DNA from: Gemmatimonadota bacterium
GTDB lineage: Bacteria > Gemmatimonadota > Gemmatimonadetes > Longimicrobiales > Gaopeijiaceae
Reading direction: 5' to 3'
NCBI GenBank assembly: GCA_007124095.1
Contig: SLFU01000209.1
Location: 1-59,253 of the forward strand
Length of the DNA stretch: 59,253 bases
Positions 25,105 to 32,958 of the stretch are shown here, in pieces. Below the pieces are notes generated by a model. That model saw nothing but the letters and a program-made list of their open reading frames with translations. It ran no database searches and was not told the origin of the DNA. The position numbers were made by a program, and so were the translations under genes. Every line of letters begins with the position of its first letter. Positions within the stretch are counted from its first letter, which is position 1.

Positions 25105-26358
25105 TCAGTAACGGGGGAGGCTCGGATCCACTTCTTCCTGCCAGCTCAGGATCCCACCGCGAAGATTCCAGACCTTCCGGAAACCGGCCTGCTGGAGCTG
25201 CTTCAGGGCCTTAGCGCTTCGCGTGCCCCCCTGGCAGTGCAGCACGATCTCTTCGGCCGAATCCAGCTCCGAGAGGCGTTCCGGGAGGGAATCGAGCGGG
25301 ATCAGCTCGGCTCCCAGGGGACCGAGGTTCACGATCTCCCACTCGTGCGGCTCCCGAACATCCAACATGCGGAGAGAGTCGCCGCGATCGAGGCGACCTT
25401 TCAGCTCGGTCGCGGAAATGGTCGGCACATCCTCGTCCGCCGCCTCCGGACCTTCCTCATAGGCAGGAACCCCACAGAACTCGAGGTAGTCAATGAGCTC
25501 GGTGACCGTGGGCTCATCTCCACACACCGGACAATCCGCGTTCTTCCGCAAGGTGAGGGTGCGCCACTCGAGGGCGAGGGCATCGAAGAGGAGGAGTCGG
25601 CCGATCAGCGGATCACCCTTCCCCAGGATCAGCTTGATCGTCTCGAGCGCCTGGAGAACGCCGATGATCCCCGGGAGCACCCCGAGCACCCCGCCCTCTG
25701 CGCAGCTCGGGACCATTCCGGGGGGTGGGGGTTCCCGGAAGAGGCATCGGTAGCAGGGGCCGTGGCGGGCGTCGAAGACCGAGACCTGCCCCTCGAACCG
25801 AAATATCGATCCGTAGACATTCGGCTTCCCGAGGAGGACACAGGCGTCGTTGACGAGATAACGGGTCGGGAAGTTGTCCGTCCCGTCCACCACCACGTCG
25901 TACGGCTCGAAGAGCTCGAGCGCGTTGTCGCTCGTAAGACGAAGCTCATGTCGATCGACCTGGACGTGAGGGTTCACGTCCTTCAACCGCTCCGTCGCGG
26001 AATCCAGCTTCGATCGGCCAATGTCCTTCGTTCCGTAGAGGATCTGACGCTGGAGGTTGGTGTGGTCGACCACGTCGTATTCCACGATCCCGATGCGTCC
26101 CACTCCGGCTGCAGCGAGGTAGAGCCCAAGGGGCGACCCCAAACCACCTGCACCCACCATCAGGACACTGGCGTCCTTCAGACGCCGCTGCCCCTCCATC
26201 CCGACCTCGGGCATGATGAGATGGCGGGAATACCGCTCGATCTCTTCGTTACTCAGTCCCGGCAACTCCCGGCCCGACCCGATTGCCCACGGTGGGGAAC
26301 CCCCGTTCTCGCTCGACGGACGAATCGGCGTCTCGGTCCCACTCTCGGATGCACTCAC
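25105..26358 (-). CDS. moeZ: MoeB/ThiF-type E1 adenylyltransferase fused to a rhodanese domain (MoeZ-type)
   Basis: YSRHLIMPEVGMEGQRRL..VLMVGAGGLGSPLGLYLAAAGVG..DHTNLQRQ..CYRC...CPVC. The C-terminal rhodanese carries the active-site loop CQGGTRS. Confidence 0.88.
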   Translation of the reverse strand: MSASESGTETPIRPSSENGGSPPWAIGSGRELPGLSNEEIERYSRHLIMPEVGMEGQRRLKDASVLMVGAGGLGSPLGLYLAAAGVGRIGIVEYDVVDHTNLQRQILYGTKDIGRSKLDSATERLKDVNPHVQVDRHELRLTSDNALELFEPYDVVVDGTDNFPTRYLVNDACVLLGKPNVYGSIFRFEGQVSVFDARHGPCYRCLFREPPPPGMVPSCAEGGVLGVLPGIIGVLQALETIKLILGKGDPLIGRLLLFDALALEWRTLTLRKNADCPVCGDEPTVTELIDYLEFCGVPAYEEGPEAADEDVPTISATELKGRLDRGDSLRMLDVREPHEWEIVNLGPLGAELIPLDSLPERLSELDSAEEIVLHCQGGTRSAKALKQLQQAGFRKVWNLRGGILSWQEEVDPSLPRY

Positions 26359-29961: not shown

Positions 29962-30207
29962 CTATGGGGGGGTCAGCTCGAAGTGGGTGTAGTTCTTGGC
30001 AATATACGAGGTCCACTCCTCCGGCACGTCCGTGTCGGGAAAGATCGCCTGGACAGGGCACTCCGGCTCACAGGCCCCACAGTCGATGCACTCGTCCGGA
30101 TGGATGTAGAACTGATCGTCGGATTCGTAGATGCAATCCACCGGACATACGTCGACACAGCTCGCATCCTTGGTGTCTATGCACGGCTCGGTAATGATGT
30201 ATGTCAT
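29962..30207 (-). CDS. 7Fe-type ferredoxin (3Fe-4S plus 4Fe-4S)
   Basis: [25 protein letters not shown] ... [12 protein letters not shown]. Confidence 0.9.
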
Positions 30208-30212
30208 GGGAT

Positions 30213-30791
30213 CTATTTTTTCCTTTTCCCCGAAGGGAATTCGGCCTCATTCAGGACCCGTCCGGGCCCCTTCGCGCCTCCGGTTACACCACCGGAATCC
30301 CGACGTGCCCCCCGAACGTGTCCAGTGGGAGGGTCGGCGCGGGGGATCTCCCGGACACTGCCTCCGGGTTCCGGATCCCGGCACCAGGCCCGGATCCGCG
30401 GAGGTTCGGAGCCCCGGGTGAACCCCGCGATCACCCATACCGTGTGGGGCCAGAGCTCCATGAACCGTCGATCCACGGGAGAGGGTACCGGTTCGCTATC
30501 GGGGTGGGTGTGGTAGAACCCCACCACCTCCTCTTCGGATTCACGGAGGGACTTCTCGACCTCCAGGAGGCGAAGCGGATCGATCATGAATCGATTCCGT
30601 CGCCTCTCGGGAGGCTCGGTGTTGGGCGTGGGGACGATCGAGGTCACAAGCACGACCCCCTCCGCACTTCTCCGACCGACGAGGAGGCCGCACGCCTCCT
30701 CCGCGGCCGCAGCGCGAGCCTCGGCGACGACTGCGTCCCCCACCTCCTCGAACCAGGCCCAGCCCGTCACACGCGAGGGAGTGCGGATCAA
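30213..30791 (-). CDS. JAMM/MPN+ (Mov34) metallopeptidase
   Basis: EACGLLVG ... [17 protein letters not shown] matches the E..HxHx7Sx2D motif. I propose the TTG start at 30791, which lies 4 nt after the carrier-protein stop and has GGGAG upstream. The track start at 30893 overlaps the carrier gene. Confidence 0.8.
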
Positions 30792-30795
30792 TCGC

Positions 30796-31077
30796 TCACT
30801 CCCGGCCCCCTGCGATCGAGGGAACGATCGAAACCTCGTCTCCTTCACTGACTGGGGTCTCGAGCTCCTTCTCGTAACGGATGTCGGTGCCATTCACGAA
30901 GACGTTCAGGAACTGGCGAAGCTCGCCCCCCTCCTCCGTGATCCGCGCCAGCAGATCGGGATTCTCACGTCCTACGTGAGCCAGCACGTCACGCACCGTC
31001 GCGCCCTCCGCTTCCAGCTCCCCACGACCGTGGGTCAGCTTCCTCAGGGCACTCGGCACCCGGACCGTCACACTCAT
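30796..31077 (-). CDS. MoaD/ThiS-family sulfur-carrier protein ending ...AGG-RE
   Basis: MSVTVRVPSALRKLT..FLNVFVNGTDI..GDEVSIVPSIAGGRE. The AAGGAG element favours the third ATG (31077), but 31083 and 31086 are also possible. Confidence 0.8.
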   Translation of the reverse strand: MSVTVRVPSALRKLTHGRGELEAEGATVRDVLAHVGRENPDLLARITEEGGELRQFLNVFVNGTDIRYEKELETPVSEGDEVSIVPSIAGGRE

Positions 31078-31149: not shown

Positions 31150-32433
31150 TCATCCAACAGGCTCCTGCTGGCCCGCCTCGGCGAGCCGAACCACCTCCGA
31201 AAGCCTCGGGTCGATCGGTTCACCCAGCTCGAAGGTCGCTCGAGCCGCATTTGGGGTCTTCAGGCCGTTGCCCGTGATACAGAGCACGGTCGGCCCACCC
31301 TTCGCGAATCGACCCTCTCGCGCCAGCCGGGCCGCTCCGGCTACGACCACCCCGCCGGCCGTCTCCGTGAAGACCCCTTCGAGGCTGGCCAGCAACCGGA
31401 TGCCCTCCACGATCTCGTCGTCCGAGACCGCCTCGCCCCAGCCTCCGCTGTCGAGCATGGACCGGAGGGCGAAGGGGCCGTCTGCGGGGTTCCCGATCGC
31501 AAGCGAGCGAGCGATGGTGTCGGGCTTCCGGACCGGCTGGACACGACTTTCCCCCGCGTGAAGAGCATTGACGATGGGCGCACATCCCGAGGCCTGGGTC
31601 CCGAAGAGCCGCGGGGTCCGGGACTCAGCCACGAGCCCCACCTTCTCGAGCTCCTTGAAGCTCTTCTCCAGCTTCGTGATCAGGGAGCCGCCCGCCATCG
31701 GAGCCACGACATTCGCCGGCAGAGACCAGCCGAGCTGTTCGACGATCTCGAATCCGACCGTCTTCGAGCCCTCCGCATAATAGGGGCGCAGGTTCACATT
31801 CACGATCCCCCACCCGAACCGATCCGCGACCTCGGCACAGAGCCGATTCACATCATCGTATACGCCCTTGATGCGCACCAGTCGGGCTCCATGGACACCG
31901 GTGGCGACCACCTTCTCAGGTTCCAGGTCCTCCGGAATGAAGATCCACGCTTCCAATCCCGCAGACGCGGCCTGCGCCGCCACGGAGTTGGCAAGGTTAC
32001 CGGTGGAGGCACACCCCACCACAGAGATGCCGAACTCATGTGCGCGCTGGAGGGCAATGGCGACCACCCGGTCCTTGAAGGACTGGGTTGGGTGATTCGA
32101 AGAATCCGCCTTTATCCAGAGGTCCTCGATGCCGAGAGCGTCCCCGAGGCGCGGGGCCGGCAGGAGAGGGGTCCAACCAACCGCGTGTCCCCCCTCGGGA
32201 TCCCGCTCGATGGGAAGGAGCTCGCGGTAGCGCCAGAGATTGGTGGGCCGGCTGCGGATCAACTCCGGAGAAAGGGTGCCGTGGAGCCCCTCCAGGTCGT
32301 AGTCTACTTCGAGAGGTCCGAAACACTCCTCGCACACATGAAAGGGCCCCGCCTCCGTCACCGTCCCGCAGAGGCGACATCGAAGGGTGTCGAGGGTGCT
32401 GGAGGCCACCGGTCCGGTCTTCGTCTGTTTCAT
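31150..32433 (-). CDS. threonine-synthase-like PLP enzyme with an N-terminal zinc ribbon
   Basis: CRLCGTVTEAGPFHVCEECFGPLEV is a Cys4 ribbon. NHPTQSFKDRVV carries the PLP lysine. The tryptophan-synthase-beta fold is evident throughout. Confidence 0.85.
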   Translation of the reverse strand: MKQTKTGPVASSTLDTLRCRLCGTVTEAGPFHVCEECFGPLEVDYDLEGLHGTLSPELIRSRPTNLWRYRELLPIERDPEGGHAVGWTPLLPAPRLGDALGIEDLWIKADSSNHPTQSFKDRVVAIALQRAHEFGISVVGCASTGNLANSVAAQAASAGLEAWIFIPEDLEPEKVVATGVHGARLVRIKGVYDDVNRLCAEVADRFGWGIVNVNLRPYYAEGSKTVGFEIVEQLGWSLPANVVAPMAGGSLITKLEKSFKELEKVGLVAESRTPRLFGTQASGCAPIVNALHAGESRVQPVRKPDTIARSLAIGNPADGPFALRSMLDSGGWGEAVSDDEIVEGIRLLASLEGVFTETAGGVVVAGAARLAREGRFAKGGPTVLCITGNGLKTPNAARATFELGEPIDPRLSEVVRLAEAGQQEPVG

Positions 32434-32500: not shown

Positions 32501-32541
32501 AAACAAAAAAGCCCAGACCTCCATCGGGAGGAGGCCGGGGC
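32501..32541 (-). terminator. intrinsic terminator in the leader of the thrC-like operon (attenuator B)
   Basis: Minus strand: GCCCCGGCCTCC-tcccgat-GGAGGTCTGGGC followed by TTTTTTGTTT. It ends 67 nt upstream of the ATG at 32433. Confidence 0.8.
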
Positions 32542-32572
32542 TCGTTCAGCTCGTCGGATCCGTTGCTTGCTG

Positions 32573-32671
32573 CTAAGGCCCTCCGGACACGACCGTCCCC
32601 GCCCTGACCTCCTCGAGCGAGGAAGCCATCATGGAACAGCCGCACATGCTGATTGTGGCGGTTGCGGTCAT
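32573..32671 (-). CDS. Cys/Met-codon leader peptide of the thrC-like/moaD/JAMM operon
   Basis: Hand translation gives ATG ACC GCA ACC GCC ACA ATC AGC ATG TGC GGC TGT TCC ATG ATG GCT TCC TCG CTC GAG GAG GTC AGG GCG GGG ACG GTC GTG TCC GGA GGG CCT TAG, which is MTATATISMCGCSMMASSLEEVRAGTVVSGGP. The inner start at 32647 gives MCGCSMM... I see no strong SD, so the start is uncertain. Confidence 0.45.
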   Translation of the reverse strand: MTATATISMCGCSMMASSLEEVRAGTVVSGGP

Positions 32672-32958
32672 GTTGACGCTCGTGTCTGGCTTCTTTCGGA
32701 CTACAGCTCTCACGACCCGTGGGACGGACGGCCGCAGAAAGCACGGAACGAAACGCTATGCAACCACCCACCGCCAGTCAAGCCCCACCGGATTCGTTCG
32801 CCCCTCACGGAGGGAGGCCCGGCCGAAGATGATGACGATAATGAGCCTTGACAGCCCTCTCCATCCCGACCGAGCATACGGTACATCCTGAAGACATGCT
32901 GAAAGCGGGTCCAAGCGCCGCCAAGCCTTCGTTCCACTCTCCACGAGGTCAAATCACT

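What the first reader, a model, noticed from the sequence alone, without database searches (positions are those of the whole stretch)
31150..32433. ThrC-family enzyme in a sulfur-carrier operon: possible O-phosphohomoserine-dependent homocysteine (or O-phosphoserine cysteine) synthase
The protein has the threonine synthase PLP-lysine motif (SFKDR) and a Cys4 zinc ribbon at the N-terminus. It is co-transcribed with a GG-type sulfur carrier and its JAMM protease, and it sits behind a Cys/Met-codon leader. Threonine synthase acts on O-phosphohomoserine. By analogy with CysM (O-phosphoserine plus CysO-thiocarboxylate), this paralog could transfer sulfur from the carrier thiocarboxylate to a phosphorylated hydroxy-amino acid. 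From memory, ThrC-like enzymes have been implicated in non-canonical methionine pathways in some actinobacteria, and that recollection needs checking. The Met codons in leader B fit a homocysteine/methionine product.
Basis: inference. Interest (0 to 1): 0.6.

Follow-up and report, generated by a model that had tools for sequence, protein, structure and literature searches.

The report
MetM-type homocysteine synthase, mislabelled threonine synthase
This gene looks like threonine synthase but belongs to the recently described MetM family, which makes the methionine precursor homocysteine from O-phosphohomoserine using sulfur carried on a small protein; it is a new member of a known pathway, here in a soda-lake Gemmatimonadota bacterium.

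Summary
ORF 31150-32433(-) encodes a 427-aa ThrC-family PLP enzyme with an SFKDR lysine motif and an N-terminal Cys4 ribbon. A ThiS/MoaD carrier ending GG-RE, a JAMM peptidase and a ferredoxin follow it, and a Met/Cys-codon leader ORF with a terminator precedes it.

The window protein falls in a strongly supported clade (SH-aLRT 100) with Streptomyces orthologues (50% identity). That clade is almost always followed by a carrier gene (74 of 80 loci). It is separate from canonical ThrC, which sits next to hom/thrB.

A SAM-I riboswitch lies directly upstream of the clade's gene in 8 of 8 Streptomyces-like genomes and 19 of 30 genomes from other phyla. Three residues I recall as phosphate-binding in ThrC are replaced across the clade.

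The genome also holds an E. coli-type thrC in a thrA-thrB-thrC operon, a PRK08197-type ThrC, metX/metY and metH. The local variant is regulatory: a leader-peptide attenuator in place of the riboswitch.

Verdict: new member of a known kind, not assayed. The scan had already noted the leader and called the operon 'metM-like'.

The parts
32753..32781 (-). Promoter-like element: TTGACT, 17 nt spacer, TAGCGT
   Evidence: Read from the sequence. A similar TTGAC..TAGCGT element sits at the same place in the same-genus relative L216. The consensus scan did not call it, so this is an inference.
32573..32671 (-). Leader ORF of 32 codons with clustered Met and Cys codons (..ISMCGCSMM..)
   Evidence: Met/Cys-rich or Met-only leader ORFs followed by a terminator stand before 5 of 8 Gemmatimonadota orthologues (window, L216, L218, L219, L220).
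32505..32545 (-). Intrinsic terminator (G+C stem plus T-run) between the leader and the ThrC-like gene, acting as the attenuator
   Evidence: stem 32536-32516 followed by a T-run; fold. Ribosome-masking folds gave an antiterminator in 2 of 5 relatives only.
31150..32433 (-). MetM-type ThrC-family PLP enzyme, 427 aa: predicted carrier-thiocarboxylate-dependent homocysteine synthase
30796..31077 (-). MetO-like ThiS/MoaD sulfur carrier, 93 aa, ending AGG-RE
   Evidence: Pfam ThiS at 59 bits. 44% identical over 90 aa to the Streptomyces achromogenes carrier that follows its MetM orthologue. Start site and ribosome-binding site.
30213..30791 (-). Mec-like JAMM metallopeptidase, predicted to remove the RE tail and expose the GG carboxylate
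   Evidence: Prok-JAB at 71.6 bits; desampylase model at 73.8 bits, below its cut-off. [14 protein letters not shown] motif. The start lies 4 nt after the carrier stop.
29962..30207 (-). Small Fer4 ferredoxin, last gene of the operon; role unknown
   Evidence: Pfam Fer4 at E 2.7e-10. Sequence.
25105..26358 (-). MoeZ-type E1 (ThiF domain plus rhodanese domain), predicted to adenylate and thiocarboxylate the carrier
   Evidence: ThiF at 273 bits plus Rhodanese at 57 bits. The MoeZ model NF005902 scores 509 bits, below its cut-off of 647.

Best explanation
The gene encodes a MetM-type homocysteine synthase: a threonine-synthase paralogue that, like ThrC, binds O-phospho-L-homoserine on PLP and eliminates phosphate. 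Instead of adding water at C-beta, it accepts the C-terminal thiocarboxylate of the neighbouring MetO-like carrier at C-gamma and gives homocysteine.

The inferred steps are as follows. The carrier is made with a GG-RE tail and the adjacent JAMM (Mec-like) peptidase trims it to GG. The MoeZ-type E1 with its rhodanese domain, 5 kb downstream, adenylates the carrier and loads sulfur. Sulfate reduction is supplied by the cysH and siroheme genes between them. ThrB (contig C175) supplies the phosphorylated substrate. MetH (contig C78) methylates homocysteine to methionine.

Expression is set by a leader-peptide attenuator that reads Met and Cys codons, where Streptomyces and many other phyla use a SAM-I riboswitch.

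Shown here: family membership, synteny, regulation and the presence of the partner genes. Inferred: the chemistry, the carrier processing, the sulfur loading and the attenuation.
For: 1. Published pathway. MetM, MetO, Mec and MoeZ convert O-phosphohomoserine to homocysteine in Streptomyces albulus, and MetM is 'often misannotated' as threonine synthase. S. albulus metM has an upstream SAM riboswitch and an adjacent metO.

2. Streptomyces-like orthologues. Eight large genomes of 68-71% G+C all show SAM-I riboswitch (76-81 bits), then a ThrC-like gene, then a MoaD-like gene. One is Streptomyces achromogenes. The window protein is 50% identical to it over 391 aa (E 4e-120), and the carriers are 44% identical.

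3. Phylogeny. In a tree of 95 ThrC-family proteins, a clade of 46 (SH-aLRT 100, stem 0.79) holds the window protein, all 8 Streptomyces-like proteins and all 28 proteins with a carrier gene next to them. A separate clade of 25 holds canonical ThrC, 15 of them next to hom or thrB.

4. Carrier linkage. 74 of 80 related loci from many phyla have a MoaD-like ORF, nearly always directly downstream.

5. Riboswitches in other phyla. 20 of 21 SAM-I riboswitch hits in 30 such genomes lie just upstream of this gene, covering 19 of the 30 genomes.

6. Signature residues. Thirty clade-specific residues were found and the window protein has 29. They include L147, N214, R216 and Y219, where canonical ThrC has T, S, N and R. 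The PLP lysine and the STGN motif are kept.

7. Other ThrC genes. All 30 genomes tested carry at least one further ThrC-family gene. The window's own genome has two more.

8. Partner genes. thrB and metH are present in the genome. thrB is adjacent to the orthologue in L127, L120 and L138.

9. Leaders. Met/Cys leaders stand before 5 of 8 Gemmatimonadota orthologues, and one (L218) is Met-only.
Against: No enzyme assay exists for this protein or for any Gemmatimonadota member.

The S. albulus MetM sequence itself (A0A059WBP2) could not be fetched. The link therefore runs through Streptomyces orthologues recognised by the published architecture.

The protein scores above the curated cut-off of the thrC model TIGR00260.

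A cyanobacterial homologue 51.6% identical to MetM showed threonine synthase and threonine deaminase activity in vitro and did not raise methionine in vivo (PMC12172450). Residual or dual ThrC activity is therefore possible.

The genome already has metX and metY, so the route is redundant. Only 8 of 61 related genomes carry it.

The local context (cysH, siroheme genes, Cys codons in the leader) would fit a cysteine product equally well.

The MoeZ and JAMM proteins score below the curated cut-offs of their closest named models.
Confidence: 0.85

Rival explanations
1. It is an O-phosphoserine-dependent cysteine synthase. It would perform CysM-like chemistry on a ThrC scaffold, taking sulfur from the carrier thiocarboxylate to make cysteine.
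For: The operon lies in a sulfate-assimilation island with cysH, a MoeZ-type E1, and the siroheme genes cobA and CbiX. The leader holds Cys codons, and relatives L219 and L220 have Cys-rich leaders. In two relatives the gene directly follows sulfite reductase.
Against: The protein is orthologous to Streptomyces genes under SAM riboswitches. In other phyla, 20 of 21 SAM-I riboswitch hits precede this gene. The leader in L218 has many Met codons and no Cys codon. thrB is adjacent in L127, L120 and L138. CysK/CysM models score only about 50 bits against cut-offs near 390. The genome has CysK-like and CBS-like genes for cysteine.
Confidence: 0.05
2. It is simply a threonine synthase. On this view the neighbouring carrier and JAMM genes serve another acceptor.
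For: TIGR00260 scores 246 bits against a cut-off of 167, and the nearest solved structures are threonine synthases. Public annotations call every relative 'threonine synthase'. A cyanobacterial homologue has threonine synthase activity in vitro. The MAG's E. coli-type thrC is cut by a contig end.
Against: A thrA-thrB-thrC operon and a PRK08197-type ThrC (546 bits) are present in the genome. Public runs read the PLP lysine codon of the operon's thrC as AAG and carry contigs that run on past the contig end. The clade is separate from ThrC linked to hom or thrB. It replaces T88, S155 and R160. It is under SAM or Met control, not Thr control. The carrier gene is conserved directly downstream in 74 of 80 loci.
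Confidence: 0.05
3. It uses free sulfide or another thiol rather than the carrier, or it makes a different gamma-substituted product such as a precursor for a cofactor or secondary metabolite.
For: A ferredoxin of unknown role ends the operon. A small sister clade has the zinc ribbon but no carrier gene.
Against: The carrier gene is tightly and widely linked to this gene. The Streptomyces system is reported to use MetO-thiocarboxylate. The cysteate synthase model scores 57 bits against a cut-off of 325.
Confidence: 0.05

Closest known systems
MetM/MetO/Mec/MoeZ pathway of Streptomyces albulus (Hasebe et al., Appl Environ Microbiol 2024; listed in GapMind 2026, PMC13759103)
   Same: A ThrC-homologous PLP enzyme is followed by a ThiS/MoaD carrier. 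A JAMM hydrolase and a MoeZ-type E1 take part. The window protein is 50% identical to a Streptomyces orthologue, lies in the same clade and carries the same signature residues. Expression responds to methionine status.
   Different: The host is Gemmatimonadota from a soda lake. Control is by a Met/Cys leader-peptide attenuator instead of a SAM-I riboswitch. The carrier has a GG-RE tail, and the JAMM gene and a ferredoxin are in the same operon. The genome also keeps metX and metY. The function has not been assayed.
Canonical threonine synthase ThrC (for example Thermus thermophilus, PDB 1UIM/1V7C)
   Same: The two share the fold-type II PLP domain, the SFKDR lysine motif, the STGN loop and presumably the substrate O-phosphohomoserine (206 bits to 1UIM).
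   Different: The window protein has an extra N-terminal Cys4 ribbon of about 60 aa. T88, S155, N157 and R160 are replaced by L, N, R and Y. It falls in a separate clade, is not linked to hom or thrB in this window, and is linked to a sulfur carrier.
Wolinella succinogenes HcyS/HcyD/HcyF/MetY protein-thiocarboxylate methionine pathway (Krishnamoorthy & Begley 2011; cited in PMC5764234 and PMC8191291)
   Same: Homocysteine sulfur comes from a carrier thiocarboxylate. From memory, the carrier carries a C-terminal extension that a JAMM-type protease removes, and the genes cluster with sulfate-assimilation genes.
   Different: The acceptor enzyme there is MetY, a fold-type I enzyme that acts on O-acetylhomoserine. 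Here it is a ThrC paralogue that would act on O-phosphohomoserine.
Mycobacterium tuberculosis CysM/CysO/Mec/MoeZ cysteine pathway
   Same: The logic is the same: a carrier thiocarboxylate donates sulfur to a phosphorylated hydroxy-amino acid on a fold-type II PLP enzyme, with JAMM and MoeZ partners (from memory).
   Different: CysM belongs to the CysK/CysM family, uses O-phosphoserine and makes cysteine. The window protein scores far below the CysK/CysM cut-offs.

Membership tests
MetM (MetO-thiocarboxylate-dependent homocysteine synthase) | ThrC-homologous fold-type II PLP enzyme with the catalytic lysine | tested here: met
   PALP at E 1.4e-67. SFKDR with K120. 206 bits to T. thermophilus ThrC.
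MetM (MetO-thiocarboxylate-dependent homocysteine synthase) | Groups with Streptomyces MetM orthologues and apart from canonical ThrC | tested here: met
   The clade of 46 (SH-aLRT 100) holds the window protein and 8 Streptomyces-like proteins. Identity to the S. achromogenes orthologue is 50%. Caveat: the S. albulus protein A0A059WBP2 itself was not available.
MetM (MetO-thiocarboxylate-dependent homocysteine synthase) | Sulfur-carrier gene (metO, ThiS/MoaD fold, GG end) directly downstream | tested here: met
   The carrier lies 72 nt downstream and is 44% identical to the Streptomyces carrier. 74 of 80 related loci have such a gene. Here the GG is followed by RE.
MetM (MetO-thiocarboxylate-dependent homocysteine synthase) | Mec-type JAMM hydrolase and MoeZ-type E1 present | tested here: met
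   The JAMM gene is in the operon. The ThiF-plus-rhodanese E1 lies 5 kb downstream. Both score below the curated cut-offs of their nearest named models.
MetM (MetO-thiocarboxylate-dependent homocysteine synthase) | A separate threonine synthase and a homoserine kinase in the same genome | tested here: met
   thrA-thrB-thrC lies on C175 with thrC cut by the contig end, and four public runs read the PLP lysine codon as AAG. A PRK08197-type ThrC lies on C151.
MetM (MetO-thiocarboxylate-dependent homocysteine synthase) | Methionine/SAM-responsive control (SAM riboswitch in Streptomyces) | tested here: inconclusive
   No SAM riboswitch was found in the window or the genome. A Met/Cys-codon leader plus terminator stands in its place and is conserved in relatives. 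Its function is inferred, and the folding test was mixed.
MetM (MetO-thiocarboxylate-dependent homocysteine synthase) | Catalyses O-phosphohomoserine + carrier-COSH -> homocysteine | not testable with these tools
   This needs an enzyme assay or complementation.
Canonical threonine synthase (EC 4.2.3.1) | Residues T88, S155 and R160 (T. thermophilus numbering); I recall these, unverified, as phosphate-binding, and they are invariant in the canonical clade sampled here | tested here: not met
   The window protein has L147, N214 and Y219 at these positions. The canonical clade has T, S and R in 100% of its members.
Canonical threonine synthase (EC 4.2.3.1) | Placement in the clade of ThrC genes linked to hom or thrB | tested here: not met
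   The canonical clade of 25 (SH-aLRT 96) excludes the window protein. TIGR00260 is passed (246 against 167) but it also passes the MetM-like clade, so it does not discriminate.
CysM/CysK O-phosphoserine or O-acetylserine sulfhydrylase | Membership of the CysK/CysM sequence family | tested here: not met
   The best cysteine synthase model scores 50 bits against a cut-off of 387.

The most novel reading that the evidence does not exclude
In this lineage the MetM-type enzyme may be more than a back-up for MetY. It could be the main entry point of reduced sulfur into both sulfur amino acids. Sulfate would be reduced and loaded on the carrier, homocysteine would be made first, and cysteine would then be derived from it by the genome's CBS-like and cystathionine gamma-lyase genes. 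That would explain why one attenuator reads both Met and Cys codons and why the operon lies inside the sulfate-reduction island. The co-transcribed ferredoxin could feed the reductive steps.
Probability: 0.12. Interest if true: 0.55.

Novelty: new member of a known kind. Interest (0 to 1): 0.3.

Why it matters
Every public annotation seen here for this clade reads 'threonine synthase'. Genome-based reconstructions of methionine and threonine metabolism in many phyla are therefore wrong in the same way.

- the clade itself;
- about 30 signature residues, including STGN-L in place of STGN-T and NxNLRPYY in place of NSxNPxR;
- a carrier gene directly downstream;
- a SAM-I riboswitch or a Met/Cys leader upstream.

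It also shows that the pathway described in Streptomyces in 2024 is spread over Acidobacteriota, Planctomycetota, Verrucomicrobiota, Cyanobacteria, Nitrospirota, Actinomycetota and Gemmatimonadota. For this particular gene the result is an annotation correction and a regulatory variant, not a new kind of system.

Tried and rejected
- **Riboswitch search.** Rfam found nothing in the window at gathering score. At E up to 10 around the leader it found only chance hits driven by the terminator. It found no SAM-I riboswitch in the whole genome.
- **Papers not held.** The Hasebe 2024 paper and the Krishnamoorthy & Begley 2011 paper are not in the library. Their content is taken from citing papers and from memory, and is marked as such.
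- **ThrC phosphate-site residues.** A literature search for the T. thermophilus residues returned nothing relevant. That these residues bind phosphate therefore rests on memory.
- **Alignment too divergent.** The search for related loci with the 29-sequence alignment failed for lack of a conserved stretch. A 10-sequence alignment worked.
- **Leader folding.** With the stalled-ribosome region masked, an antiterminator appeared in L216 and L220. The terminator persisted in the minimum-energy fold for the window, L218 and L219. The attenuation mechanism is not settled by this.
- **Expression.** No RNA holder was listed for the stretch, so nothing can be said about expression.
- **Cluster look-up.** The 90% cluster look-up did not list A0A059WBP2 among the 15 members shown.
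- **Rejected families.** Cysteate synthase, threonine/serine dehydratase and CysK/CysM readings were rejected on score.
- **Not run.** No structure prediction and no complex prediction were run. The enzyme-carrier pairing rests on synteny and the published Streptomyces work.

Full report
**What is there**

The window is contig C144 of a 2.83-Mb Gemmatimonadota metagenome-assembled genome with 65% G+C. The nearest named proteins come from Gemmatimonadota and Longimicrobiales MAGs. The stretch is held by soda-lake, alkali-sediment and salt-lake metagenomes.

ORF 31150-32433 on the minus strand gives a 427-aa protein. It matches Pfam PALP at E 1.4e-67, TIGR00260 thrC at 246 bits (cut-off 167), and NF006050 at 300.3 bits, just under its cut-off of 303. 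The nearest solved structures are threonine synthases from Thermus, Aquifex, Bacillus and Mycobacterium, at 171-206 bits. The SFKDR lysine motif lies at residues 118-122. The four cysteines of an N-terminal ribbon (C19, C22, C34, C37) are conserved in relatives.

Three genes follow on the same strand. A ThiS/MoaD carrier lies at 31077-30796 behind an AAGGAG site; it begins MSVTVRV and ends AGG-RE. A JAMM peptidase at 30791-30213 starts 4 nt later. A small Fer4 ferredoxin lies at 30207-29962.

Further along are cobA (plus strand), a CbiX-DR2241-Fer4 fusion, cysH, and a ThiF-plus-rhodanese E1 of the MoeZ type at 26358-25105.

Upstream of the ThrC-like gene are a 32-codon ORF with the run SMCGCSMM and an intrinsic terminator. 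That terminator is the only terminator-like site on this strand between 29800 and 33000.

**Is it the only thrC?**

No. The genome has two more ThrC-family genes.

One is on C151. It is 37% identical to the window protein and matches NF006050 'threonine synthase' at 546 bits.

The other lies on C175, at the end of a thrA (aspartokinase-homoserine dehydrogenase)-thrB-thrC operon. It is of the E. coli type, with a Thr_synth_N domain, and the contig end cuts it. The MAG reads its PLP-lysine codon as AGG (Arg), 40 nt from the contig end. Contigs of four public runs read A at that base, giving AAG (Lys). Some of those contigs run past the end of the stretch, and relatives have FKD. The Arg is therefore an assembly artefact or a minor variant.

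The genome also has metY and metX side by side, two further Cys/Met-family PLP genes, CBS-like and CysK-like genes, and metH. No metE was found.

**What is known**

Hasebe et al. 2024 described MetM in Streptomyces albulus. MetM is a threonine-synthase homologue that converts O-phosphohomoserine to homocysteine using the thiocarboxylate of the carrier MetO, and Mec and MoeZ prepare the carrier. GapMind 2026 lists all four steps and notes that MetM 'is often misannotated' as threonine synthase. Another paper states that S. albulus metM has an upstream SAM riboswitch and an adjacent metO. It also reports that a Microcystis homologue, 51.6% identical to MetM, has threonine synthase and deaminase activity in vitro. 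The primary paper is not held.

**Tying the window protein to MetM**

I sampled 301 Actinomycetota genomes, and 136 had a homologue at E of 1e-80 or better. That tally includes three unpublished genomes (G031, G078 and G150), and no other claim rests on them.

Eight large genomes of 68-71% G+C all show the published architecture: a SAM-I riboswitch (76-81 bits), then a ThrC-like gene, then a MoaD-like gene ending GG. One is Streptomyces achromogenes, where the two genes are annotated 'threonine synthase' and 'MoaD/ThiS family protein'. The window enzyme is 50% identical to it over 391 residues (E 4e-120). The carriers are 44% identical over 90 residues.

**Linkage and phylogeny**

A scan of one genome per species returned 80 loci at 50-60% identity. 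They come from Acidobacteriota, Planctomycetota, Verrucomicrobiota, Cyanobacteria, Nitrospirota, Actinomycetota and other phyla. A MoaD-like ORF is present in 74 of the 80, nearly always directly downstream on the same strand.

All 30 of these genomes that I searched hold at least one further ThrC-family gene.

In a maximum-likelihood tree of 95 ThrC-family proteins (quick search, SH-aLRT only), a clade of 46 has support 100 and a stem length of 0.79. It holds the window protein, six Gemmatimonadota relatives, all eight Streptomyces-like proteins and all 28 proteins with a carrier gene next to them. Canonical ThrC forms a separate clade of 25 (support 96), 15 of them next to hom or thrB. The PRK08197-like proteins, including the C151 copy, form a third group with no recurring neighbour.

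thrB sits immediately beside the MetM-like gene in L127, L120 and L138. This fits O-phosphohomoserine as the substrate.

**Regulation across phyla**

In the same 30 genomes, 21 SAM-I riboswitch hits were found in 20 genomes. Twenty of the 21 lie just upstream of the MetM-like gene on the same strand, which covers 19 of the 30 genomes. In all but one of those 19 it was the only SAM-I hit in the genome. This evidence is independent of sequence similarity and shows that the clade serves methionine/SAM synthesis, not threonine synthesis.

**Signature residues**

Thirty positions are at least 90% conserved in the clade and rare in canonical ThrC. The window protein has 29 of them.

Mapped onto T. 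thermophilus ThrC, T88, S155, N157, R160 and Q164 become L147, N214, R216, Y219 and S223. The PLP lysine, S-T-G-N, N154 and E-G-x-K-T are kept.

From memory, T88, N154, S155 and R160 bind the substrate phosphate in ThrC. I could not verify this in the library. A reshaped phosphate and leaving-group pocket would fit a change from beta-addition of water to gamma-replacement by a thiocarboxylate. That is an inference.

**The local variant**

Rfam finds no riboswitch in the window or the genome. Five of the eight Gemmatimonadota orthologues instead carry a short ORF rich in Met and Cys codons, followed by a strong terminator. They are the window, L216 (same genus), L218 (many Met codons, no Cys), L219 (an MCMCMCCM run) and L220. 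Two others directly follow a sulfite reductase gene.

Simple ribosome-masking folds gave an antiterminator in two of the five. An earlier follow-up in this scan reached the same reading of the leader.

Only 8 of 61 genomes of the same family and order carry the gene. Together with metX/metY, this marks it as an accessory, redundant route.

**Verdict**

The most likely function is a MetM-type, carrier-thiocarboxylate-dependent homocysteine synthase (about 0.85). The JAMM protein would trim the GG-RE tail, the MoeZ-type E1 would load sulfur, ThrB would supply substrate and MetH would finish methionine.

The rivals are a cysteine-forming O-phosphoserine enzyme, a plain threonine synthase, and another donor or product. 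Each is unlikely (about 0.05) but only an assay excludes them.

The finding is a new member of a known kind with a regulatory variant. Its main value is correcting a widespread misannotation.

Noticed in passing
L015:2772-2774 (own genome, contig C175, 40 nt from its end): The MAG reads the PLP-lysine codon of the E. coli-type thrC as AGG (Arg). Contigs of four public soda-lake and salt-lake runs read AAG (Lys), and some run past the end of the stretch. The same-genus genome G331 also breaks inside this gene. This is probably an assembly problem at a motif shared with more abundant organisms.
   Followed up: yes
G001-G030, places listed: In 19 of 30 genomes from several phyla a SAM-I riboswitch sits directly upstream of the MetM-like 'threonine synthase'. 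In 18 of those 19 it is the only SAM-I hit in the genome. G027 has two MetM-like copies, each with its own riboswitch and carrier gene.
   Followed up: yes
own genome C151:3561-4625(-); L223-L244: A PRK08197-type ThrC paralogue (33-39% identical to the window protein) is present in most of the related Gemmatimonadota genomes searched. It forms its own clade with no recurring neighbour and, in these genomes, no Cys4 ribbon. It is unclear whether this copy or the E. coli-type copy is the housekeeping threonine synthase.
   Followed up: partly
L218 (upstream of its MetM-like gene), L219, L220, L216: The leader ORFs before Gemmatimonadota orthologues differ in codon content. L218 has runs of Met only (MMMM..M.M..MMM). 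L219 has MCMCMCCM. L220 and L216 mix Met and Cys. All are followed by a strong terminator.
   Followed up: partly
L217 and L221: In two relatives the MetM-like gene directly follows a sulfite reductase gene, with no leader between them.
   Followed up: no
L041, L046, L062, L069, L081; L042, L048, L054, L075: Some carrier ORFs do not end at GG. Acidobacteriaceae copies end in Cys-rich tails (..QEECICGD). Several others are about 170-aa ORFs ending ..VLDVVE, with a JAMM gene within 3 kb. These are stop-to-stop ORFs, so the ends need checking.
   Followed up: no
L151, L156, L157, L158: A small sister group of ThrC-family proteins has the N-terminal Cys4 ribbon but no adjacent carrier gene. It scores between MetM-like and canonical ThrC on the clade profile (428-470 bits). 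Its function is unknown.
   Followed up: no
window 29962-30207 (-): An 81-aa Fer4 ferredoxin is the last gene of the operon, 5 nt after the JAMM stop. I found no role for it in the published MetM pathway summaries.
   Followed up: partly
L127 (G019), L120 and L138 (G027): Homoserine kinase (thrB) lies immediately next to the MetM-like gene or its carrier gene in these genomes. This fits O-phosphohomoserine as the substrate.
   Followed up: partly
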